A stretch of 42,342 nucleotides of DNA from a virus. The stretch is from the IMG/VR virus record IMGVR_UViG_3300013122_000002, positions 1 through 42,342 of that record; one strand, 5' to 3'. Every line of letters begins with the position of its first letter. The stretch's first letter is position 1. Under the pieces are notes generated by a model. That model saw only the letters and a program-made list of their open reading frames with translations. It did not search any database and was not told where the DNA came from. This document shows, one piece after another, positions 1-42,342 of this stretch. The position numbers and the translations under genes are program-made.

Positions 1-123
1 TTTAGGTATCAATGAGGATTGAATTATGGATTCTATGCAAGCATTTGCGAATGGTGAAGCTAATCGAGGAAAGGAGTTAATGGTTTTTGATTGGGAAAAA
101 GCCGTTAATCTAATTAATGAAAA
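1..123. repeat. terminal direct repeat, copy A (identical to 42220..42342)
   Basis: Read directly: bases 1-123 recur at 42220-42342. This implies a 42,219-bp circular or permuted unit opened at an arbitrary point. Confidence 0.95.
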
Positions 124-376
124 AGGCTATAAAGAATGCGGCGCAGGCCTTAAAGATGATTATGAGTGGACTGCTGGAAATATTTTAACTAATGGAAAGC
201 CTGTAACTGATGATTATACTTATCTAGCATCAACTTGGGCTACCCCACAACTAATTGTTTACTCAGATGATGGTTATGAGATTATTCATGAAATCGATTG
301 CTTTATCATGGAAAGTGAAACAAATTGGGGCGCAGACACAAAGTTCCCAGAAGATCAACAGAAGCGATTAAAATAG
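26..376 (+). CDS. hypothetical accessory protein (cargo of leader-RNA cassette 4)
   Basis: 116-aa ORF. GAGGA SD lies 7 nt upstream (seen in the 42233-42237 copy). Followed by terminator 394-419. No family recognised. Confidence 0.7.
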   Translation: MDSMQAFANGEANRGKELMVFDWEKAVNLINEKGYKECGAGLKDDYEWTAGNILTNGKPVTDDYTYLASTWATPQLIVYSDDGYEIIHEIDCFIMESETNWGADTKFPEDQQKRLK

Positions 377-419
377 ATTTAAATGCTAAACTAAGCCTAT
401 CGAAAGATGGGCTTTTTTT
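374..419 (+). repeat. 3' cassette-boundary repeat (homologous to 35233..35276), contains the terminator
   Basis: TAGATT(T)AAATGCTAAACTAAGCC..GATGGGCTTTTTTT is shared almost base for base with 35233-35276. Confidence 0.85.
394..419 (+). terminator. intrinsic terminator
   Basis: 8-bp stem AGCCUAUC/GAUGGGCU (one G.U pair), GAAA loop, T7 tract. Confidence 0.75.
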
Positions 420-32753: not shown

Positions 32754-33086
32754 ATGTCTACAGTTACAGTATTATGCAAAAAGCCTTATGGTGTTGAATT
32801 GCAAGTTGGTAATCAGAAAGTCGTCTTAAACGGCTACAACAGCTCTGCCGTTGCTCACGGCTATGGCATCACTGAAAACGTGCCTAAAGAGTTGTGGGAT
32901 GCATGGGTAGAACAACACAAAGGTCATAAGCTCTATACGTCAGGTTGTATTGCCGCACAAGAAACTACACGAAATGCCAAAGCTCAGGCGAAAGATACAG
33001 CCGAGCTAAAAACTGGCACTGAGCGCATTAAGCAAGGCAAACATGCAGGCGTTGAGAAAGATGCCGATGCAGGTAAAGGCGTATAA
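32754..33086 (+). CDS. hypothetical head/connector-module protein
   Basis: 110 aa from ATG 32754 with a GGGAG SD. Confidence 0.6.
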   Translation: MSTVTVLCKKPYGVELQVGNQKVVLNGYNSSAVAHGYGITENVPKELWDAWVEQHKGHKLYTSGCIAAQETTRNAKAQAKDTAELKTGTERIKQGKHAGVEKDADAGKGV

Positions 33087-33088
33087 CT

Positions 33089-33517
33089 ATGGCAAAAGTC
33101 GTATTCGACCCCGCCCACTTTAAAGAGATTTACCCGCAATTCGCGGGTATTTCCGATACACAATTAGAGTGGTTTTTCAAGAAGTCTGAGCAAATCCTAG
33201 ATAATAGCGAAAATTCTTGTATTGACGAGGATACGCGCCTTATTTGGTTTTACTTGCTTGTTGCTCACTACGCGCAACTACAGACACAGATCCAAAGCGG
33301 AAATTCTGCCGTTGGTCGGATTTCTTCGGCTACTGAGGGTAGTGTTTCTGTTTCGTTGGATTACCCCACTTCTGCCGTTGGTCGTGAAAAATGGTTCAAC
33401 CAAACGCCATACGGTGCAGAATACTGGATGATGACAGCTCCATATCGCACAGGCTTGTATGTTGTGACTAACATTGCCATGCCTGTTGATCGCAGTCGTT
33501 ATCCGCAACCACGGTGA
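33089..33517 (+). CDS. head-tail connector protein (DUF4054-like)
   Basis: 142 aa. The N-terminal FDPAHFKEIYPQFAGISDTQLEWFF resembles DUF4054 proteins. Confidence 0.6.
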   Translation: MAKVVFDPAHFKEIYPQFAGISDTQLEWFFKKSEQILDNSENSCIDEDTRLIWFYLLVAHYAQLQTQIQSGNSAVGRISSATEGSVSVSLDYPTSAVGREKWFNQTPYGAEYWMMTAPYRTGLYVVTNIAMPVDRSRYPQPR

Positions 33518-33520
33518 TAA

Positions 33521-33952
33521 ATGGTCAAGCGTACAGGGCAAGGACTTGCGAGCTATCTTAAAAAACTAGCTCCTGAGTCTACAGGCGCACACGTTAAAGT
33601 CGGTGTGCTAGAAAATTCTAAATATCCCGATGGTACGCCCGTTCCATTGGTGGCTTTTTGGAATGAGTACGGCACACGGACAGCACCGCCCCGACCTTTT
33701 TTTCGAGATACCATCGAACAGAATAAGAAGAATTGGTCTGATATGACTTTACGTGGTATCGGCAGAGGTTTGCCAGTTACCGAAATTTTGGGGCTTGTTG
33801 GTCTCCAAATGCAAACAGACCTACAGACCGCCATCATGACGTTTACAGACCCAAAAAACGCAGATAGCACGGTTGCCAAGAAAGGAACACAGTCGCCATT
33901 GCGTGAAAGTTTACTTCTTCATGATTCAATTAAGTCGCAAGTTGTTGAATAG
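33521..33952 (+). CDS. HK97 gp10-like head-tail joining / tail completion protein
   Basis: 143 aa. ..VGVLENSKYPDGTPVPLVAFWNEYGT..APPRPFFR resembles the HK97 gp10 family. Confidence 0.6.
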   Translation: MVKRTGQGLASYLKKLAPESTGAHVKVGVLENSKYPDGTPVPLVAFWNEYGTRTAPPRPFFRDTIEQNKKNWSDMTLRGIGRGLPVTEILGLVGLQMQTDLQTAIMTFTDPKNADSTVAKKGTQSPLRESLLLHDSIKSQVVE

Positions 33953-33955
33953 TGA

Positions 33956-33964
33956 TGCTATAAT
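33956..33964 (+). promoter_or_regulatory. extended -10 promoter TGCTATAAT of cassette 1
   Basis: Starts 4 nt after the upstream stop codon. Exactly 6 nt separate the hexamer from G33971, the first base of the leader RNA. Confidence 0.6.
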
Positions 33965-33970
33965 AATTAT

Positions 33971-34034
33971 GCGGATAGAGTGACGGCTCGAAAACCAATT
34001 AACCTGATTGGCTTCCGCATTAATATTTCAGGTT
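33971..34034 (+). ncRNA. structured 5' leader RNA (three-way junction + pseudoknot), copy 1 of 4
   Basis: P1 GCGGA/UCCGC. J1/2 UA. P2 GAG-UGACGG-CUC. J2/3 GAAAA. P3 CCAAU-UAACCUG-AUUGG. J3/1 CU. The L3 loop AACCUG pairs with CAGGUU at 34029-34. Confidence 0.8.
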
Positions 34035-34053
34035 ATTGATAGAGGTATCAAGT

Positions 34054-34635
34054 ATGAAATTAGTCCATGGTGTTGGTTTTAATGATAGAAAATATATAAC
34101 AAGAATTGATGGGAAGAACACAGTTCAATACTCATTATGGTTTAATATGGTTGCTAGATGCTACTCTCCACATATGCTTAAAAATCTACCAACATATAGA
34201 GATTGCTTTCTATCTGATAACTTTCTTGATTTTTCATATTTCCATGAGTGGTTTGATAATCAGCATGGGCGAAAGCTGTTCGACCCAAATATAGATAAAG
34301 ATCTAATCTTTAAAGGAAATAAAATATACAGTGAGGATAATTGTTTTATTCTTCCTCCTGAAGTAAACGGATTGTTTATTAAAAGCAACTCCAAGAGGGG
34401 GCTTTATCCAATTGGCGTTAATTTTAGGAAAAATGATAATAAATTTGTCGCACAAGTAAACGCAATGGGGAAGCGAAAGACTATAGGGTACTCAAAAGAT
34501 CCTATGGAATGTTTTTTAATGTACAAATACGCTAAAGAAAAAGAAATTAAGCGTGTAGCTAGTGTGTGGAGAGATCAAATATCTCCTAAAGCTTATGACT
34601 TGCTTATGAGTTATCAAGTTGAGATAACTGATTAA
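34054..34635 (+). CDS. AP2-domain / degenerate HNH_3-like putative homing endonuclease
   Basis: 193 aa from ATG 34054. GVGFND..Y..W.NMVARCY; IDKDLIFKGNKIYSEDNCFILPPEVN; AP2-like GVNFRKNDNKFVAQV...IGYSKDPMECFLMYKYA. Confidence 0.6.
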   Translation: MKLVHGVGFNDRKYITRIDGKNTVQYSLWFNMVARCYSPHMLKNLPTYRDCFLSDNFLDFSYFHEWFDNQHGRKLFDPNIDKDLIFKGNKIYSEDNCFILPPEVNGLFIKSNSKRGLYPIGVNFRKNDNKFVAQVNAMGKRKTIGYSKDPMECFLMYKYAKEKEIKRVASVWRDQISPKAYDLLMSYQVEITD

Positions 34636-34662
34636 TATAAGAAATACTAATTATCTTTTTAA
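34636..34662 (+). repeat. 5' cassette-boundary repeat (homologous to 42115..42140)
   Basis: TATAAGAAATACTAATTATCTTTTTAA versus TATAAGAAATACTGATTATTTTTTAA: one substitution and one indel. Confidence 0.85.
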
Positions 34663-34674
34663 GAGCAATATTAG

Positions 34675-34680
34675 TATTAT
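34675..34680 (+). promoter_or_regulatory. -10 box TATTAT of cassette 2
   Basis: Exactly 6 nt upstream of G34687. Same distance (38 nt) from the boundary motif as in cassette 4. Confidence 0.5.
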
Positions 34681-34686
34681 GAGTAA

Positions 34687-34749
34687 GTGCCTAGATTAGC
34701 TATCGAACATCGGGAAAGCCTACCGACTGGCACACCATATTTTTAGGCT
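34687..34749 (+). ncRNA. structured 5' leader RNA, copy 2 of 4
   Basis: P1 GUGCC/GGCAC. J1/2 UA. P2 GAU-UAGCU-AUC. J2/3 GAACA. P3 UCGG-GAAAGCCUA-CCGA. J3/1 CU. The L3 loop AGCCUA pairs with UAGGCU at 34744-49. Confidence 0.8.
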
Positions 34750-34766
34750 GTAACTGAGGTAGTTAT

Positions 34767-35231
34767 ATGTTTTATAAAGTTGAGTGTGAAGAAACTTTAT
34801 CCTTGATTGATGCATTTATGGAAAAGCGTAATGCATTATATGATCAAGTTAAATTGATTTGTGAAAAGTACGGATTTGAGATGCATCAAACGCATGACAG
34901 TATTCAGTTTGGCATCCAGTTTTACAATATGGTGGCAAACCCAAATACTGAAATTGATAAATCTTTATGGAAGACGAGAAAACAAAAGAATGGGTATTTA
35001 TGCTTATTGCCACGCGCCACAGCAAAGGATCATAAGAAGGAATATGACGCCCTCACCCCAAAACAAGTTGATTATTCAGAGCTAACAAAACTATTAATCA
35101 AGGATGAATTGCCTTGGAATAAGTCTTATGGATACCGCTACAAGAAAGGCGAGTATTTTATGTTTGAAACATCACTACCTGTATCTGATATTGCTATCGA
35201 GATTCTTGGCAGCGAATACAACAAAGAATAA
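34767..35231 (+). CDS. hypothetical accessory protein (cargo of cassette 2)
   Basis: 154-aa ORF with a GAGG SD 7 nt upstream. No family recognised. Confidence 0.7.
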   Translation: MFYKVECEETLSLIDAFMEKRNALYDQVKLICEKYGFEMHQTHDSIQFGIQFYNMVANPNTEIDKSLWKTRKQKNGYLCLLPRATAKDHKKEYDALTPKQVDYSELTKLLIKDELPWNKSYGYRYKKGEYFMFETSLPVSDIAIEILGSEYNKE

Positions 35232-35232
35232 C

Positions 35233-35276
35233 TAGATTAATGCTAAACTAAGCCCTATCAATGATGGGGCTTTTTT
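35233..35276 (+). terminator. 3' cassette-boundary repeat with an intrinsic terminator
   Basis: TAGATTAATGCTAAACTAAGCCCTATC-AAT-GATGGGGCT followed by T6. Homologous to 374-419. The downstream ATG 35277 abuts the T-tract. Confidence 0.8.
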
Positions 35277-35693
35277 ATGTCTATTAAACTAAGAATGATG
35301 GCGAATAGCGTTACAAGGGCAATAAACCCGAATGTAACCAATGCGGATATTTATGTGAACATTGGATCGGAAACAATCGCAGGCGGTAAGGTTGTGCCGA
35401 AATACACCAAGATTGTGAAAGATATTCAGATTCAGGCGATTCAATCAAAAGACCTTGAGCATTTAAACTTGATCAATCAACAAGGCTCATTCTGCTACGG
35501 ATACATTGACGGTATCATTGACCCTATGATACGTGGCTTAGGCACAGGTTTATCCTATGTTGAGTTTGGTGGTGTAAAATGGACTGTCAAATCCGTGGTT
35601 GAGGATTGGCTCAAGTATGCAAGCGGTGACATCGGTAATGCATTGAATGATCAAAATGGCGATTGGGTGAAGGTGGTATTATGGCGGAAGTAG
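35277..35693 (+). CDS. neck / head-closure-like protein
   Basis: 138-aa ORF between the connector genes and the tail sheath. The function is positional. Confidence 0.55.
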   Translation: MSIKLRMMANSVTRAINPNVTNADIYVNIGSETIAGGKVVPKYTKIVKDIQIQAIQSKDLEHLNLINQQGSFCYGYIDGIIDPMIRGLGTGLSYVEFGGVKWTVKSVVEDWLKYASGDIGNALNDQNGDWVKVVLWRK

Positions 35694-36187
35694 ATTTTTT
35701 AGATCAAATGTTTGTTGAAATCTGGAATATGTTCGCTGAAATGTTCCCGACTTTCGATTCAAGCAAGATTGTGTGTGGCTATCAGAACACCCAGCCACTT
35801 CCTATAGATGGAATAGTGATAACCTTTATCACTGAAACTGATTTAGACCAATTGAGCTATTCAGAGGTGACTAATCCCGATTTAATTAGCCAAACTGTAA
35901 CCGTACAGACCGCAGTTAAGACAATGATGCAAGTTGACTGCTATGGCGACTTAGGACAGGCAAGGGCTAGACAAATAGCCACAATGTTTAAAAACCCTTA
36001 TGCATGTGAGCGCCTGCAATCATGTAAGCCGCTAGACTATCGACCGCCTAAGAACCTCTCATTTGTTAATGAAGCATCTGAGTACGAAGCACGATGGATG
36101 GTGGAAATTGATATGCAATACAATCCACACTATACTTATCGTCAAGAATCTACTAAAACAATTACGGTAGATATTAATCCACTTTAA
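35681..36187 (+). CDS. tail completion / sheath-terminator-like protein
   Basis: 168 aa from ATG 35681 with an AAGGTGG SD. Directly upstream of the sheath gene. Confidence 0.55.
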   Translation: MAEVDFLDQMFVEIWNMFAEMFPTFDSSKIVCGYQNTQPLPIDGIVITFITETDLDQLSYSEVTNPDLISQTVTVQTAVKTMMQVDCYGDLGQARARQIATMFKNPYACERLQSCKPLDYRPPKNLSFVNEASEYEARWMVEIDMQYNPHYTYRQESTKTITVDINPL

Positions 36188-38746: not shown

Positions 38747-40881
38747 TGGCTCATATTGTAGATGCAATCATGGTAACGCTTGGGCTTGATACATCAAAGT
38801 ATACAGCTCAGGCAGAGAATGCCATTAAGACCGATGCACGGCTCGAAAAAAGCCTAGATGGTGTCGAGAAGAAAGGCGGTGCGGTTTCCAAAAACTTTGA
38901 GGGGCTAGCCAACGCTGTAAAGGGTGCTGCTAAGGTTTTTGCGTCTTTGGCTGCTGCGACAGGTATCATCCGATTTTTGCAAAACGTAGCGGAAGAAACG
39001 CGCCAAGCCAATGAGGAAATGCTAAAGCTTCAATCTTCACTTGGTCTAACTGCTGAAAAAATCAATGGTATGCGTGGTGCGGGTGCTGCTTTAGGCGGTA
39101 CAGCCGAGGGCATGACAAATTCAATGAAAGGCCTTAACAAAGGCATGAATGATTTTGTTGTGAAAGGTGATACTTCCCTGCTTCCATTTATGAACGCACT
39201 AGGCGTTTCAATGGTAGACGGACAAGGAAAACTTCGGGACGTAGACAAGGTGATGCTTGATCTATCTGATTCATTCTCAAAAATGAACAGCGAACAAGCT
39301 TACGCACTCGGTCAAGACATGGGTTTCGATGAGGGAACGATTGCAGCATTGATGCAGGGTCGTGACGCCATGAAAGAAATGTCCGAATATCACGCCAAAA
39401 TGTACACATCATCGAAAGAGGAATTAGCAGCAAGCCGAGAGCTATCCAAGAATCAGGCGCAATTATCTGCACATTGGGCAAGCATGAAATTGATGATCGG
39501 TAATGCGATTATCCCCCTACTTGTAAAGCTAACCAACTTTGCTAAGGCATTTTTTGAGTTTTTACAAGATCATCAAAAGACTGTTAAGAACGTATTTGAA
39601 GCAATGGCATTTGTTTTGGGTGCTGTGCTTATTCCGTTATTTGGCAAAGCATTGATTGCAGCACTAGCATTTATTGCACCGTTTGCTCCATTTATTTTAG
39701 TTGTCACAGCAATAGCCGCTGCATTTACCTTGCTTTATGACGACTACAAAGTATGGGCAGAGGGTGGTCAATCATTATTTGATTGGGGTAAATTCTCCGA
39801 CCTTATTGACGGTGCAAAACTTTCCGTTGAAAGCTTGACCAAAGGTTTTGGAGAGCTTGCCGATAAAGTAATGGCTGAGGTTATCCCTACACTCAAAGGC
39901 TATGCGTCAATCATTCAGAAGCTATTTAGCGGTGACTTTGCAGGAGCATCGGCAGAAGCTAAAGAAATGTTTGCTGAGTTTGGTTCGCGTGCTAAGGATG
40001 CTATTAGCCCTGCATGGAATAAAGCTGCTGACTTTATGTTAGGTGGTGCGTTTAAGATGGGCGACAACCAATCCCCTGCTGTTGGTGGTGGCTCATTCAA
40101 GAAATCAAACCACGGTAGCACCTTAGCACTAAGCGAAAGCGATATTATTGATATTATGAAAGTAACATCAACAGAGGTTGTCTCAGGGCTTAAAAACGGG
40201 AATAGCGAAAAGCAAGCAGCGGGTGTAATTGATACTATTCTTAACCGAGCTGCGTCAGGGAAATTTGGCAAAGGGGTGCGTGGTGTTGCAAATCAGCGTT
40301 GGGCGTTTTCCGCTATTAATGCGCCACGAAAAGGAGCTTATGGAAGTGTGCAAAATGTTCCTATGGATAAAGTATCACCTAGTATGCAGGCTTTTGTGCG
40401 CGACTACTTGAGAAAACGCGCCGAGGGAATGCCATCGAGTGTTGGTGAAAACTTATCTTATGCAAATCCAAATTATTTAGGGGAAGCTAGTTCAGCCACT
40501 AAAAAATGGGTTGCAGAGGTTGAAAAACAAGCCAAAGCGTCAGGTCAGATTTTCGGCTCAGGAAAAGCTATTCATGTTCATGGAACACCATCGGCAGACC
40601 GCAGCAAGATGCCCTCTCCATTCAATGTGGCTATTCCAGATCAACCATCCAACCTACAACAAGGCGCAGCACAAGCACAAGGCATGGTTCAGCAAAGCGC
40701 TACACCAAGAAAGCTTTATAACAGCAAAGGTCTACAATCCGATATGCAAAGCCGCTCAGTTGATGTGAAAATGGGTGACTTGAATATCTATACAACAGCT
40801 TCAAGCGTGTCGGGCATTACTTCCGATGCAATGCGTGGAGTTGAAGCAAGCCTTAACAATCTTGGCACAAGTATGGCATAA
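38746..40881 (+). CDS. tape measure protein with a C-terminal cell-wall-hydrolase-like domain
   Basis: 711 aa, GTG start. Coiled-coil-type N-terminal half and a hydrophobic block (FVLGAVLIPLFGKALIAALAFIAPFAPFILVV). The stretch AAGVIDTILNRAASGKF...NQRWAFSAIN resembles the SleB/Hydrolase_2 family. Confidence 0.8.
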   Translation: MAHIVDAIMVTLGLDTSKYTAQAENAIKTDARLEKSLDGVEKKGGAVSKNFEGLANAVKGAAKVFASLAAATGIIRFLQNVAEETRQANEEMLKLQSSLGLTAEKINGMRGAGAALGGTAEGMTNSMKGLNKGMNDFVVKGDTSLLPFMNALGVSMVDGQGKLRDVDKVMLDLSDSFSKMNSEQAYALGQDMGFDEGTIAALMQGRDAMKEMSEYHAKMYTSSKEELAASRELSKNQAQLSAHWASMKLMIGNAIIPLLVKLTNFAKAFFEFLQDHQKTVKNVFEAMAFVLGAVLIPLFGKALIAALAFIAPFAPFILVVTAIAAAFTLLYDDYKVWAEGGQSLFDWGKFSDLIDGAKLSVESLTKGFGELADKVMAEVIPTLKGYASIIQKLFSGDFAGASAEAKEMFAEFGSRAKDAISPAWNKAADFMLGGAFKMGDNQSPAVGGGSFKKSNHGSTLALSESDIIDIMKVTSTEVVSGLKNGNSEKQAAGVIDTILNRAASGKFGKGVRGVANQRWAFSAINAPRKGAYGSVQNVPMDKVSPSMQAFVRDYLRKRAEGMPSSVGENLSYANPNYLGEASSATKKWVAEVEKQAKASGQIFGSGKAIHVHGTPSADRSKMPSPFNVAIPDQPSNLQQGAAQAQGMVQQSATPRKLYNSKGLQSDMQSRSVDVKMGDLNIYTTASSVSGITSDAMRGVEASLNNLGTSMA

Positions 40882-40882
40882 T
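40874..40882 (+). promoter_or_regulatory. extended -10 promoter TGGCATAAT of cassette 3
   Basis: Overlaps the tape measure stop codon. Exactly 6 nt lie between the hexamer and G40889. Confidence 0.5.
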
Positions 40883-40888
40883 TAATAC

Positions 40889-40951
40889 GTGGCTAGGGTA
40901 GCTCCCGAAAATCGTGCAACCTACACGACCGCCACGTTAATTTTTTAGGTT
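40889..40951 (+). ncRNA. structured 5' leader RNA, copy 3 of 4
   Basis: P1 GUGGC/GCCAC. J1/2 UA. P2 GGG-UAGCU-CCC. J2/3 GAAAA. P3 UCGUG-CAACCUA-CACGA. J3/1 CC. The L3 loop AACCUA pairs with UAGGUU at 40946-51. Confidence 0.8.
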
Positions 40952-40967
40952 ATTTAAGGTGAATGTT

Positions 40968-41189
40968 ATGACAGTTACGGTAAAAGTTGTTGACATAGAT
41001 AAGATTAAAAAAACAGTAACAATTGAAGCTTGGTGTGATCGTGGAGGGCATAGAGTTATGCGAACCCCATTTAGTTATAAGCAGCAATCAAAGAAATCAA
41101 TTGAGTCAATGTTGAGAAAAGAGCTGAAAGCGTTTCAACAACCAGTATGGGGTGGTTTTTGCGTTCAATTCTATTGCAGCGTTGATTGA
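40968..41189 (+). CDS. hypothetical 73-aa accessory protein (cargo of cassette 3)
   Basis: ATG 40968 lies 6 nt after an AAGGTG SD; GTG 40959 is possible. MTVTVKVVDIDKIKKTVTIEAWCDRGGH.... Confidence 0.6.
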   Translation: MTVTVKVVDIDKIKKTVTIEAWCDRGGHRVMRTPFSYKQQSKKSIESMLRKELKAFQQPVWGGFCVQFYCSVD

Positions 41190-41197
41190 TGTAAACT

Positions 41198-41219
41198 AGC
41201 CCTCAATAGAGGGCTTTTT
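41198..41219 (+). terminator. intrinsic terminator of cassette 3
   Basis: AGCCCTC-AATA-GAGGGCT followed by T5. Confidence 0.75.
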
Positions 41220-41232
41220 AATTGGTGAATTT

Positions 41233-41844
41233 ATGGCAATGGCTGGAATGCCGAGTATCCCCAACTTTAAGGGATTGGTAACTGCGGGTACTGACGCTGC
41301 AATCAACTTAGGTGGCGCAGCATTAATCCGCGCTGTATTCGGTGAAGTATGGGGTTTGGTTAATGAATTTGGCGTGCCGATTCTTTTGTCGGATAGTGTG
41401 AAGAACGTTGACTATACAAACAGCTCAACCATTTCTAAATTCTTGATTGAGAAAGGCTCATTTAGCTCATACAACAAAGTCACCGATCCGCGCTTTTTAT
41501 CGGTTCAGTTGATTAAATGGAAAGGTACAAAGCTTGAGAAATCAGCTTGGTTGGCTCAGCTTGAGCTATACGCAAACAGCACACTTAAATTCCATGTTGT
41601 TACACCTGAATACCTATATCGAAATTACAACATTACGCGCCTTGCCTACATGCGCGACAACACTTCAATTCAGATGATTACAGCGTCTATTGATTTAGAG
41701 GAAGTGCGTGAGGTTCAGCTTGAGTTTGGAACACAAGAAGCCAAAGCAGAGCAAGATAATTCCACGGTTGAGGGTGGAACGGTTCAGCCTAAGGAAGCTA
41801 GTCAATCCATGCTGTCGAAACTTGCAGGGAAATTTAACCTATGA
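41233..41844 (+). CDS. distal tail / baseplate-associated protein
   Basis: 203-aa ORF after the tape measure gene. GGTG SD. The function is positional. Confidence 0.6.
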   Translation: MAMAGMPSIPNFKGLVTAGTDAAINLGGAALIRAVFGEVWGLVNEFGVPILLSDSVKNVDYTNSSTISKFLIEKGSFSSYNKVTDPRFLSVQLIKWKGTKLEKSAWLAQLELYANSTLKFHVVTPEYLYRNYNITRLAYMRDNTSIQMITASIDLEEVREVQLEFGTQEAKAEQDNSTVEGGTVQPKEASQSMLSKLAGKFNL

Positions 41845-42119
41845 CCACACTAGCCATTGACCTACAACAAACAGCCAATCAAAACTTGCAAGTTACACTA
41901 GGTGGGAATGTCTACCGATTGACGCTAAATACCCGACTTGATGAACTTTATATGAGTATTGAAAAAAACGGTGAGCCTGTTATTTATAATCGCATTTGCC
42001 AAAACTTAAACCCAATCGAGGAGGGTTTTGTCTTTGTTGATTTGGATGGCAGCAACAATCCGACTTTCGACCAATTCAATGATCGTTTTGTTTTGACTTG
42101 GACGGATGGGCTTATATAA
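41841..42119 (+). CDS. small tail/baseplate protein
   Basis: 92 aa, ATGA-coupled to the upstream gene. Confidence 0.6.
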   Translation: MTTLAIDLQQTANQNLQVTLGGNVYRLTLNTRLDELYMSIEKNGEPVIYNRICQNLNPIEEGFVFVDLDGSNNPTFDQFNDRFVLTWTDGLI

Positions 42120-42140
42120 GAAATACTGATTATTTTTTAA
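42115..42140 (+). repeat. 5' cassette-boundary repeat (homologous to 34636..34662)
   Basis: TATAAGAAATACTGATTATTTTTTAA. Overlaps the TAA stop of the upstream gene. Confidence 0.85.
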
Positions 42141-42150
42141 TTAAGTAAAT

Positions 42151-42159
42151 TGTTATTAT
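42151..42159 (+). promoter_or_regulatory. extended -10 promoter TGTTATTAT of cassette 4
   Basis: Exactly 6 nt lie between the hexamer and G42166. Confidence 0.55.
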
Positions 42160-42165
42160 TGTTTT

Positions 42166-42226
42166 GTGGCTAGAGTCATTCTCGAAAGCTATGCAACCTA
42201 CATAGTTGCCACATCATATTTTAGGT
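42166..42226 (+). ncRNA. structured 5' leader RNA, copy 4 of 4 (3' end lies in the terminal repeat and equals bases 1-7)
   Basis: P1 GUGGC/GCCAC. J1/2 UA. P2 GAG-UCAUU-CUC. J2/3 GAAAG. P3 CUAUG-CAACCUA-CAUAG. J3/1 UU. The L3 loop ACCUA pairs with UAGGU at 42222-26. Confidence 0.8.
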
Positions 42227-42244
42227 ATCAATGAGGATTGAATT

Positions 42245-42342
42245 ATGGATTCTATGCAAGCATTTGCGAATGGTGAAGCTAATCGAGGAAAGGAGTTAAT
42301 GGTTTTTGATTGGGAAAAAGCCGTTAATCTAATTAATGAAAA
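42245..42342 (+). CDS. 5' part of the same gene as 26..376 (duplicate created by the terminal repeat)
   Basis: Identical sequence to 26-123, truncated by the window end. Confidence 0.9.
   Translation, partial: MDSMQAFANGEANRGKELMVFDWEKAVNLINE

What the first reader, a model, noticed from the sequence alone, without database searches (positions are those of the whole stretch)
33971..34034. Unrecognised RNA family: three-way junction plus pseudoknot leader, four covarying copies, each starting at a predicted transcription start
The same architecture occurs four times on the + strand.

Copies, written as P1, J1/2, P2 stem-loop-stem, J2/3, P3 stem-loop-stem, J3/1, P1', linker, pseudoknot strand:
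- c1 (33971): GCGGA UA GAG-UGACGG-CUC GAAAA CCAAU-UAACCUG-AUUGG CU UCCGC, 10 nt, CAGGUU
- c2 (34687): GUGCC UA GAU-UAGCU-AUC GAACA UCGG-GAAAGCCUA-CCGA CU GGCAC, 10 nt, UAGGCU
- c3 (40889): GUGGC UA GGG-UAGCU-CCC GAAAA UCGUG-CAACCUA-CACGA CC GCCAC, 10 nt, UAGGUU
- c4 (42166): GUGGC UA GAG-UCAUU-CUC GAAAG CUAUG-CAACCUA-CAUAG UU GCCAC, 9 nt, UAGGU

Evidence for structure:
- All three helices show compensatory double substitutions. P1 is GCGGA/UCCGC, GUGCC/GGCAC or GUGGC/GCCAC. P2 is GAG/CUC, GAU/AUC or GGG/CCC. P3 has four different stems.
- The P3 loop covaries with a downstream hexamer: AACCUG:CAGGUU, AGCCUA:UAGGCU, AACCUA:UAGGUU. This supports a pseudoknot.
- The junction residues stay constant: UA, GAA, and two pyrimidines.

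Conserved geometry:
- Exactly 6 nt separate a -10 box from the first G of P1.
- The pseudoknot ends 4-6 nt before the SD and 16-19 nt before the AUG.
- That places the pseudoknot inside the 30S footprint.

Interpretation (inference only): a riboswitch-like or protein-bound translational control element. Alternatives are a 5'-end stabiliser or an RNA-polymerase-modifying element like the HK022 put RNAs. I do not recognise it as any riboswitch, ribozyme or phage RNA motif I know.
Basis: seen in the sequence. Interest (0 to 1): 0.92.

Follow-up and report, generated by a model that had tools for sequence, protein, structure and literature searches.

The report
Known int-alpA leader RNA, four copies
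The four repeated RNA structures are real, but they belong to a catalogued RNA family of unknown function (Rfam int-alpA); each heads a small add-on gene in this Acinetobacter phage, and a loop that can pair with either a decoy site or the ribosome-binding site suggests they control translation.

Summary
Four copies (33971, 34687, 40889, 42166, + strand) share a three-way junction, a pseudoknot and a -10 box 6 nt upstream. No fifth copy exists.

The claim of an unrecognised family is refuted. Rfam RF02996 (int-alpA RNA) matches c1 and c3 above its gathering score. A model built only from bacterial copies ranks all four as the top window hits.

About 230 relatives show more than Rfam models:
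- The -10 box tracks the base of P1, so the RNA starts at or near the transcript 5' end.
- The P3 loop (L3) covaries with X1 (the pseudoknot strand) and also with a second site, X2. X2 lies in the loop of a small hairpin, P4, and overlaps the Shine-Dalgarno sequence.
- Both pairings use the same L3 bases, so they exclude each other.
- The downstream genes are accessory or selfish: HNH and GIY-YIG endonucleases, TnpB and small unknown ORFs. They are often followed by a terminator.

My best reading is a portable promoter-plus-leader cassette that sets translation of its cargo through two alternative pairings. The trigger is unknown, and none of the mechanism has been tested by experiment.

The parts
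33959..34053 (+). c1 promoter-leader. Extended -10 TGcTATAAT 33956-33964; three-way junction 33971-34018; pseudoknot strand X1 34028-34035; hairpin P4 UUGAUA-GAGG-UAUCAA 34036-34051 with the SD in its loop.
   Evidence: Sequence. Rfam int-alpA 44.7 bits. R1 58.4 bits. R2 35.9 bits. P4 appears in the MFE fold. L3:X1 -10.2 against L3:SD -4.7 kcal/mol.
34054..34635 (+). c1 cargo: free-standing HNH endonuclease, 193 aa.
   Evidence: phrog_953 HNH endonuclease, E=5e-62. It is 46% identical to the AB2 gp56 HNH, which carries the same leader at another genome position.
34675..34766 (+). c2 promoter-leader. -10 TATTAT 34675-34680; three-way junction 34687-34733; X1 34744-34749; P4 UAACU-GAGGU-AGUUA 34751-34765.
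   Evidence: Sequence. Rfam int-alpA 31.2 bits, below the gathering score. R1 54.8 bits. R2 34.9 bits.
34767..35231 (+). c2 cargo: 154-aa protein of unknown function.
   Evidence: phrog_2314, unknown function. No Pfam match.
35250..35272 (+). Intrinsic terminator closing the c2 cassette, 5 nt before the next structural gene (35277).
   Evidence: Terminator scan: 10-bp stem followed by a T run.
40853..40967 (+). c3 promoter-leader. -35 TTAACA 40853-40858; -10 TGgCATAAT 40874-40882; three-way junction 40889-40935; X1 40946-40951; SD AAGGUG 40956-40961. P4 is weak in this copy.
   Evidence: Promoter scan hit, 10/12 with TG. Rfam int-alpA 44.7 bits. R1 61.7 bits. R2 39.1 bits.
40968..41189 (+). 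c3 cargo: 73-aa protein of unknown function. AB2 has no such gene at this site.
   Evidence: phrog_18516. In AB2 the tape-measure gene gp81 abuts gp80 directly.
41198..41215 (+). Intrinsic terminator closing the c3 cassette.
   Evidence: Terminator scan.
42154..42244 (+). c4 promoter-leader. -10 TGtTATTAT 42151-42159; three-way junction 42166-42212; X1 42222-42226; P4 UCAAU-GAGG-AUUGA 42228-42241.
   Evidence: Sequence. R1 55.8 bits. R2 24.3 bits, E=4e-4. The Rfam model reported nothing here.
42245..42342 (+). Start of the c4 cargo ORF. It runs off the window end and continues as 26-376 (116 aa, unknown function), because the last 123 nt repeat the first 123 nt.
   Evidence: Terminal repeat and translation. 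No PHROG or Pfam match.
26..376 (+). The same c4 cargo ORF, read complete at the window start.
393..419 (+). Intrinsic terminator closing the c4 cassette (AGCCUAUC-GAAA-GAUGGGCU then U7). It abuts the baseplate-hub ATG at 420.
   Evidence: Read directly from the sequence. The hub gene is phrog_196.

Best explanation
The four elements are members of the known int-alpA RNA family (Rfam RF02996).

Each is the 5' part of a portable expression cassette. The parts, in order, are:
- a sigma-70-type promoter with a -10 or extended -10 box;
- a transcript that begins at or within about 2 nt of the base of P1;
- a three-way junction;
- a pseudoknot between the P3 loop (L3) and site X1;
- a small hairpin, P4, that starts right after X1, carries the SD in or next to its loop, and ends 0-4 nt before the AUG.

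The cargo is one accessory or selfish gene, often closed by its own terminator.

L3 is also complementary to a second site, X2, which lies in the P4 loop and overlaps the SD. The same L3 bases are used for both pairings, so L3:X1 and L3:X2 cannot form together.

I infer a cis-acting control of translation initiation. When L3 is held by the decoy X1, the SD is available. When L3 pairs with X2, the SD is hidden. Burying the 5' end in P1 probably also protects the mRNA.

Shown: family membership, the architecture, the three-way covariation, and the gene context.
Inferred: that the two pairings are ON and OFF states.
Unknown: what shifts the balance. In the four window copies X1 pairing is much the stronger, so the SD-free state should dominate.
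For: Family membership:
- Rfam hits.
- An independent model built from bacterial copies only ranks all four as the top window hits.
- 11 of the 20 related loci tested reach the Rfam gathering score.

Structure:
- 93.7% of cells paired, and 10 of 12 pairs have changes on both sides.

5' end:
- TAtAAT lies at -12..-7 relative to P1. Exactly 6 nt intervene in 45 of 89 copies, and 5-7 nt in 66 of 89.
- In bacterial copies P1 is 8 bp, and the peak of -10-like hexamers moves to 9 nt before the conserved GCGCC, i.e. again 6 nt before the base of P1.

Pairing of L3:
- Mean longest L3:X1 duplex is 5.44, against 3.71 +/- 0.13 in permutations. L3:X2 is 5.46, against 4.40 +/- 0.13. None of 200 permutations reaches the observed values.
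- Replicated in the bacterial set: 5.77 and 5.53, against 4.79 and 4.95, with 0 of 300 permutations reaching them.
- The two duplexes share 91% of their L3 bases.
- Family mean energies are close: -7.4 (X1) and -6.6 (X2) kcal/mol.

P4 hairpin:
- Best stem averages 5.59 bp, against 3.75 in shuffles (p about 1e-12).
- It starts -1 to +1 nt after X1 in 54 of 67 copies. Its loop is 4-9 nt and is filled by X2. It ends 0-4 nt before the ATG in most.

Context:
- Cargo families include HNH_3, AP2, GIY-YIG, NUMOD, TnpB, DUF551 and antirepressor-like proteins.
- A terminator lies within 90 nt of the cargo stop in 21 of 61 cassettes, against 3.3% of random windows.
- In the window, c2, c3 and c4 each have one ORF followed by a terminator.
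- The same leader (about 89% identical) heads an HNH gene (46% identical) at a different position in phage AB2.
Against: - There are no experimental data of any kind, and none in the literature held. The 5' ends are predicted, not mapped.
- The generic promoter scan found only one of the four promoters.
- P1 covaries 1-2 bp upstream of the predicted start in many viral copies. One lineage has a 4-bp extension that cannot be in a transcript from the adjacent -10 box. The fold must therefore also matter in read-through transcripts, or starts vary.
- In the window copies, L3:SD pairing is only 3-4 bp (-3.0 to -4.9 kcal/mol), against -5.5 to -10.2 for X1. A true switch is weakest in exactly these copies.
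- With 4-nt P4 loops (c1, c4), the SD is poorly accessible in either state.
- Permutation tests do not correct for shared ancestry.
- The strongly conserved junction bases (CUAG, CGAAA) are not explained by a simple two-helix competition. They hint at a bound partner not identified here.
Confidence: 0.45

Rival explanations
1. A static 5' module with no switching. The junction plus pseudoknot simply buries the triphosphate end and forms a compact block. That block protects the mRNA from 5'-end-dependent decay and insulates the ribosome-binding site from whatever lies upstream. An inserted gene would then be expressed at a context-independent level, much like engineered insulators.
For: P1 begins at or next to the predicted start. 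The cassettes are inserted in many unrelated contexts. In the window copies X1 pairing dominates strongly.
Against: It does not explain why X2 at the SD covaries with L3 beyond what SD-likeness gives. It also does not explain why family-wide energies of the two pairings are nearly balanced.
Confidence: 0.2
2. A trans-acting antisense or immunity RNA, like P1/P7 C4 RNA or P4 CI RNA. The stable junction RNA would be released from the leader, and its free L3 loop would pair with X1 or X2 on other transcripts of the same specificity. This would give dose control or cross-regulation among copies.
For: Rfam types the family as an sRNA. AB2 has a copy with promoter, junction and X1 followed directly by an intrinsic terminator and no ORF, which would give an RNA of about 100 nt. 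A loop complementary to two sites, one over an RBS, is the logic of C4 and CI (established knowledge). In bacteria the element heads alpA-primase operons of P4-like islands. c3 and c4 share the same L3 and X sequences.
Against: X1 sits at a tightly fixed 8-10 nt after P1 and directly abuts P4. That is what a cis pseudoknot requires and a trans target does not. All but 3 of 168 distinct copies lack a terminator-like hairpin in the leader, and the parsed copies have a start codon about 30-38 nt after P1'. No match to the C4 family appeared at E<=10.
Confidence: 0.12
3. A processive antiterminator like the HK022 put RNAs. The nascent RNA would stay bound to the polymerase that made it and carry it through the terminators that lie just ahead of essential structural genes.
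For: In the window, terminators lie 0-18 nt before the head/sheath, phrog_1830 and baseplate-hub genes. There is no room for a promoter, so read-through must occur, and each terminator is preceded by an int-alpA promoter-leader. AB2 has promoter, RNA, terminator and then the hub gene.
Against: The architecture differs from put, which has two hairpins and neither a junction nor a pseudoknot (established knowledge). The element is tightly coupled to the SD and AUG, which antitermination does not need. In lambdoid prophages the cassette sits in the late operon and has its own terminator. An RNA that defeated that terminator would switch on late genes in lysogens.
Confidence: 0.08
4. Mainly a DNA-level mobile regulatory cassette, like the PeSL elements of T4-type phages. 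The repeated, conserved stretch of about 80-100 bp would serve as a recombination substrate that shuffles accessory genes. The RNA fold would be secondary.
For: The leader is the only stretch of 33000-36000 that matches other phages at megablast level. The same leader occurs with a diverged HNH gene at another locus in AB2. c2 and c4 share a further upstream block. PeSL provides the precedent (PMC2839356).
Against: Compensatory changes in three helices, the pseudoknot and P4 show selection on the RNA fold, not just on DNA identity. This role could coexist with an RNA function.
Confidence: 0.05

Closest known systems
Rfam RF02996, int-alpA RNA motif (Weinberg et al. 2017, NAR 45:10811; function unknown)
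   Same: The same family. It has the same three-way junction with CUAG and CGAAAA junction bases, the same 3' tail complementary to the P3 loop, and a phage or mobile-element context. c1 and c3 score above its gathering threshold.
   Different: The Rfam model stops at X1 and types the RNA as an sRNA. The promoter lock, the P4 hairpin, the second complementary site at the SD, and the association with homing endonucleases and morons are not in the model. I could not check whether the original supplement mentions them, because it is not held. c2 and c4 fall below the Rfam threshold.
P1/P7 C4 antisense RNA and P4 CI RNA (phage and satellite immunity RNAs)
   Same: A small branched RNA encoded in the leader of the operon it controls. 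One loop is complementary to two sites on the same transcript, and one of those sites covers a ribosome-binding site. The context is P4-like islands.
   Different: No sequence or model match. C4 and CI are cut out by RNase P and act in trans, and their sites flank the RNA. Here both sites lie downstream at fixed distances, which suits a cis fold.
Translational riboswitch expression platforms, and the bistable lambda cIII leader
   Same: The logic of an SD, an anti-SD and an anti-anti-SD, with two mutually exclusive pairings of similar energy next to a conserved folded domain.
   Different: No ligand is known. The downstream genes share no metabolic theme. The switching strand is a hairpin loop rather than a P1 strand.
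HK022 put RNAs
   Same: A promoter-proximal phage RNA lying upstream of terminators.
   Different: put has two hairpins, with no junction, no pseudoknot and no link to an SD or AUG.
Morons, and the PeSL mobile regulatory cassettes of T4-type phages (PMC2839356)
   Same: Small self-contained units of promoter, ORF and terminator, inserted between conserved phage genes. They are repeated within a genome and shared between unrelated genomes.
   Different: PeSLs are a terminator stem-loop plus a promoter, with no covarying leader RNA. Here the conserved part is a structured 5' UTR.

Membership tests
Rfam RF02996 int-alpA | Score at or above the curated gathering score (35.8 bits) with the Rfam covariance model | tested here: met
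   c3 scores 44.7 bits. c1 scores 44.7 bits.
Rfam RF02996 int-alpA | The same threshold, applied to c2 and c4 | tested here: not met
   c2 scores 31.2 bits, E=2e-4. c4 was not reported at E<=10. Both are recovered by the two models built here.
Rfam RF02996 int-alpA | Recognition by a model built from other members only, with no window sequence in it | tested here: met
   Model R2 was built from 67 bacterial genome copies. It scores c3 39.1, c1 35.9, c2 34.9 and c4 24.3 bits. The next window hit is 10.7 bits.
Rfam RF02996 int-alpA | Three-way junction P1-UA-P2-GAAAA-P3-YY-P1', with G-C as the first P2 pair | tested here: met
   All four copies have it.
Rfam RF02996 int-alpA | A 3' tail complementary to the P3 loop | tested here: met
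   5-8 bp in each copy.
Rfam RF02996 int-alpA | Located upstream of integrase or alpA genes | tested here: not met
   The window cargo is an HNH endonuclease and three unknown ORFs. An alpA context was seen in the Ralstonia locus L167. The name reflects only part of the family's contexts.
HK022 put RNA | Two adjacent stem-loops without a multi-helix junction | tested here: not met
   The element is a three-way junction plus pseudoknot.
HK022 put RNA | Makes the transcribing polymerase resistant to terminators | not testable with these tools
   Only the arrangement of promoter, RNA and terminator can be seen.
Riboswitch | A conserved folded domain coupled to an expression platform with alternative pairings | tested here: inconclusive
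   Alternative L3:X1 and L3:X2 pairings are present. A terminator takes the place of P4 in 2-3 of 168 copies.
Riboswitch | Downstream genes share a metabolic or transport theme that points to a ligand | tested here: not met
   Cargo is heterogeneous and mostly selfish or unknown.
Riboswitch | Direct ligand binding | not testable with these tools
   This needs in-line probing or ITC.
C4 / CI antisense RNAs (RF01695) | Match to the family model | tested here: not met
   No C4 hit at E<=10 around c1, c2 or c4, and none at gathering level in the window.
C4 / CI antisense RNAs (RF01695) | A loop complementary to two sites on its own transcript, one over an RBS | tested here: met
   This is a likeness in function only.
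Moron / mobile regulatory cassette | Own promoter and own terminator around one ORF, inserted between conserved genes and absent at that site in relatives | tested here: met
   c2, c3 and c4 each have a -10 box, one ORF and a terminator. The c3 cassette is absent in AB2. Terminators are enriched after cargo across the family. The promoters are predicted only.

The most novel reading that the evidence does not exclude
The int-alpA RNA could be a widespread, promoter-locked, two-state translational switch that travels with selfish and accessory genes: homing endonucleases, TnpB, morons and the alpA-primase operons of P4-like islands. Its invariant junction would bind a still unknown, broadly conserved signal, either a small molecule or a host or phage factor. 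That signal would decide whether loop L3 holds the decoy X1 or the SD-overlapping X2. The rare variants in which P4 is replaced by a terminator would then be the transcriptional version of the same switch. This would give an orphan Rfam motif a mechanism, and it would reveal a common expression controller for mobile genes across Proteobacteria and their phages.
Probability: 0.25. Interest if true: 0.75.

Novelty: new member of a known kind. Interest (0 to 1): 0.45.

Why it matters
The family has been an orphan since 2017, and Rfam files it as an sRNA.

The analysis here turns it into a concrete, cheap-to-test model. It gives a defined 5' end, three short sequence blocks (L3, X1, X2) whose compensatory mutants give clear predictions, and a defined hairpin at the SD.

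If the model holds, it would explain how free-standing homing endonucleases and morons carry their own expression control from genome to genome. It would also offer a compact natural insulator or attenuator part.

If it fails, the four copies remain ordinary members of a catalogued motif.

Tried and rejected
- **Single-sequence folding.** Three of four copies give the junction as the MFE fold, but z-scores are -1.6 to +0.3. This was rejected as evidence.
- **Rfam with default filters.** On the whole window it reported only c3, although c1 scores the same in a local scan. The Rfam model misses c4 entirely.
- **Generic promoter scan.** It found only c3's promoter and showed no enrichment. A family-wide position matrix was used instead.
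- **Literature.** 'int-alpA' occurs in one held paper, as a table entry only. 'RF02996' occurs in none. The supplement of the discovery paper is not held. A broader search for a homing-endonuclease leader RNA found nothing relevant.
- **Hammerhead or other ribozyme.** The topology is similar, but the junction has 9 nt and lacks CUGAUGA. No ribozyme family appeared at E<=10.
- **tRNA-like or RNase P substrate.** No tRNA genes were found. A weak N-Y-C-Y motif follows the 8-bp P1 in bacterial copies only. This was not pursued.
- **Link between -10 distance and P1 extension.** There is a trend for 6-9 nt, but overall it is not significant (rho 0.15, p 0.22).
- **MAFFT alignment of the full leaders.** The tail was misaligned. 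P4 and X2 were therefore analysed by anchored scripts, not by column counts.
- **Pfam on bacterial cargo ORFs.** Essentially nothing was found.

Full report
**1. What is in the window**

The window is a complete phage genome. Its last 123 nt repeat its first 123 nt.

It is a distant relative of the Acinetobacter Obolenskvirus myophages such as IME-AB2 and LZ35. Within 33000-36000, the only stretch that matches them at megablast level is the c1 element itself, at 88-90% identity over about 79 nt.

The four elements lie in the late structural region:
- c1 lies between the Neck1 gene and an HNH endonuclease.
- c2 lies between that HNH gene and a 154-aa ORF.
- c3 lies between the tape-measure gene and a 73-aa ORF.
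- c4 lies between a virion protein gene and a 116-aa ORF that precedes the baseplate hub.

**2.

Each copy has a -10-like hexamer ending 6 nt before the first G of P1. Three of them have a TGn extension.

A covariance model run without filters on both strands finds these four copies at 55-62 bits and nothing else above 14.9 bits.

**3. The family is already known**

Rfam RF02996, the int-alpA RNA, matches c3 and c1 at 44.7 bits. Its gathering score is 35.8. c2 reaches 31.2 bits, and c4 is not reported.

To test c2 and c4 independently, I collected 67 copies from bacterial genomes. These are mostly Burkholderiales, Rhodocyclaceae and Xanthomonadales, and their P1 is GCGCC. I built a model from these alone.

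That model ranks the four window copies first, at 39.1, 35.9, 34.9 and 24.3 bits. The next hit scores 10.7. All four are therefore members.

The literature held gives no function for the family. The family is not mentioned in the main text of the discovery paper, and its supplement is not held.

**4. The relatives collected**

Of 20 related loci tested (19 viral, one bacterial), 11 reach the Rfam gathering score.

On 80 distinct sequences the three helices are paired in 93.7% of cells, against 36-42% when partners are slid. Ten of 12 pairs show changes on both sides.

**5. The 5' end**

Upstream of P1 the viral copies show TAtAAT at -12..-7. TG is enriched at -15/-14, and there is only a faint TTG near -36. 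Exactly 6 nt intervene in 45 of 89 copies.

Positions -1/+1 pair in 65 of 80 copies and -2/+2 in 50 of 80, with several pair types at each.

In bacterial copies P1 is 8 bp. There the peak of -10-like hexamers shifts to 9 nt before GCGCC, which is again 6 nt before the base of P1 (13 of 76 loci, against about 1 at other offsets).

So the -10 box follows the base of P1. This is good indirect evidence that the RNA begins there. It remains a prediction, and one lineage has a 4-bp extension that a transcript from the adjacent box could not contain.

**6.

L3 is complementary to X1, which starts 8-10 nt after P1'. It is also complementary to a second site, X2, about 13-15 nt further on.

With L3 permuted among 50 representatives:
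- The mean longest L3:X1 duplex is 5.44, against 3.71 +/- 0.13.
- The mean longest L3:X2 duplex is 5.46, against 4.40 +/- 0.13.
- No permutation reaches the observed values.

The bacterial set replicates this, with 5.77 and 5.53 against 4.79 and 4.95.

X2 overlaps the SD. Examples are GACGA-GG, UGAAGG-AGG and G-GAGAC. The two duplexes use the same L3 bases, with 91% overlap, so they exclude each other. Their mean energies are close, at -7.4 and -6.6 kcal/mol.

**7. The P4 hairpin**

Between X1 and the AUG lies a hairpin, P4.
- Its best stem averages 5.59 bp, against 3.75 in shuffles (p about 1e-12).
- Its 5' arm starts within 1 nt of the end of X1.
- Its 4-9-nt loop is essentially X2.
- It ends 0-4 nt before the ATG.

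In the window, c1, c2 and c4 show it clearly: UUGAUA-GAGG-UAUCAA, UAACU-GAGGU-AGUUA and UCAAU-GAGG-AUUGA. In c3 it is weak.

In the window copies X2 is just the SD, and L3 (ACCU or GCCU) reads as an anti-SD. X1 pairing is much the stronger here, at -5.5 to -10.2 against -3.0 to -4.9 kcal/mol.

**8. Gene context**

Of 69 distinct downstream proteins in phage contigs, Pfam gives these counts. One protein can carry several of these domains.
- HNH_3: 9
- AP2: 4
- DUF4379: 4
- TnpB domains: 2
- GIY-YIG: 2
- NUMOD3 and NUMOD4: 2 each
- T5orf172: 2
- DUF723: 2
- Also antirepressor-like domains, a resolvase and DUF551.
- The remaining proteins, most of them short, have no Pfam match.

Terminator-like sites follow the cargo stop within 90 nt in 21 of 61 cases, against 3.3% of random windows.

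In the window, c2, c3 and c4 each have one ORF and then an intrinsic terminator, at 35250-35272, 41198-41215 and 393-419. The c3 cassette is absent from AB2.

AB2 carries a c1-like leader before a 46%-identical HNH gene in its early region. It also has a second copy at the c4 position. That copy has promoter, junction and X1 followed directly by a terminator, with no ORF.

In an E. coli prophage the element precedes a DUF551 gene between the lysis and terminase genes. In Ralstonia it heads an operon of two unknown ORFs, alpA, an HTH protein and a DUF927/Toprim primase, which is a P4-like island.

The element is thus the front end of a portable single-gene or operon cassette, in the sense of phage morons. 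It recalls the PeSL regulatory cassettes of T4-type phages (PMC2839356).

**9. How it most likely works**

Shown: the architecture, the three-way covariation, the mutual exclusion of the two pairings, and the context.

Inferred: the leader acts in cis on translation initiation. L3:X1 is the state that leaves the SD free, and L3:X2 is the state that hides it. The buried 5' end adds protection. I put about 0.45 on this.

Beyond the rivals listed, the remaining probability covers mechanisms not considered here.

Open points:
- The trigger, if there is one, is unknown.
- The invariant junction bases suggest a bound partner.
- In two or three of 168 copies a terminator replaces P4. This would fit a modular regulatory domain.

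**10. Rivals**

- A static stabiliser or insulator (0.2).
- A trans-acting antisense RNA in the manner of C4 or CI (0.12). The AB2 copy without an ORF and the P4-like context favour it. The fixed position of X1 argues against it.
- A put-like antiterminator (0.08). In its favour, terminators abut essential genes in this phage. Against it are the coupling to the SD and the cassettes' own terminators in lambdoid prophages.
- A mainly DNA-level recombination cassette (0.05).

**11. Verdict**

This is a real feature that was accurately observed, but it belongs to a catalogued family. The four copies are new members.

What may be new is the extended anatomy and the link to selfish genes. That makes an orphan motif directly testable, so interest is moderate.

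Noticed in passing
window 1-123 and 42220-42342: The first and last 123 nt are identical, so the window is a complete, circularly closed or terminally redundant genome of 42,219 unique bp. The ORF after c4 that appears cut is ORF 26-376.
   Followed up: yes
L001 (phage IME-AB2) 40419-40483, - strand: A second, weaker family copy (24.2 bits) sits at the position equivalent to c4. It has a -10 box, junction and X1, followed at once by a strong intrinsic terminator (AGCCUCC-AAUAC-GGAGGCU-U5) and then the baseplate-hub GTG. There is no cargo ORF. The 3' arm of the terminator carries both the SD and the L3-complementary X2.
   Followed up: partly
window 35250-35277, 41198-41233, 393-420: Intrinsic terminators end 0-18 nt before essential structural genes (head protein and sheath block, phrog_1830, baseplate hub), leaving no room for a promoter. 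Late transcription must read through them. How it does so is unexplained.
   Followed up: no
window 34633-34660 and 42113-42138: c2 and c4 share a block of about 27 nt (ATATAAGAAATACTRATTATYTTTTT) some 30-55 nt upstream of the RNA start. It overlaps the stop of the preceding gene. It could be a shared promoter-upstream or cassette-boundary sequence.
   Followed up: partly
positions +6 to +11 of every copy (e.g. window 40894-40899, TAGGGT): The nearly invariant U6, A7 and U11 of the RNA read as a -10-like TAnnnT in the initially transcribed DNA. It could act as a sigma-dependent promoter-proximal pause signal. The RNA-level constraints (junction UA, first loop base of P2) may equally explain it.
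   Followed up: no
linker after P1' (e.g. window 34019-34028); bacterial loci L123-L242: The 8-10-nt linker is almost free of G. In bacterial copies the 8-bp P1 is followed by N-Y-C-Y, with C at 82% at the third position. This faintly recalls a tRNA-like NCC end.
   Followed up: partly
window 34036-34635: The mechanical ORF list starts the HNH gene at TTG 34036, which lies inside hairpin P4. The SD (34042-34045) and spacing point to ATG 34054 as the real start.
   Followed up: yes
window 33968-34033: A point of method. The whole-window Rfam scan at gathering threshold missed c1, although c1 scores 44.7 bits in a local scan. The default speed filters can lose true members of this short family.
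   Followed up: yes
L123-L242 (bacterial genomes): The first ORF after the element in bacterial islands is usually a protein of about 200 aa with no Pfam match, and it is very diverse between loci. alpA lies further down the operon.
   Followed up: partly
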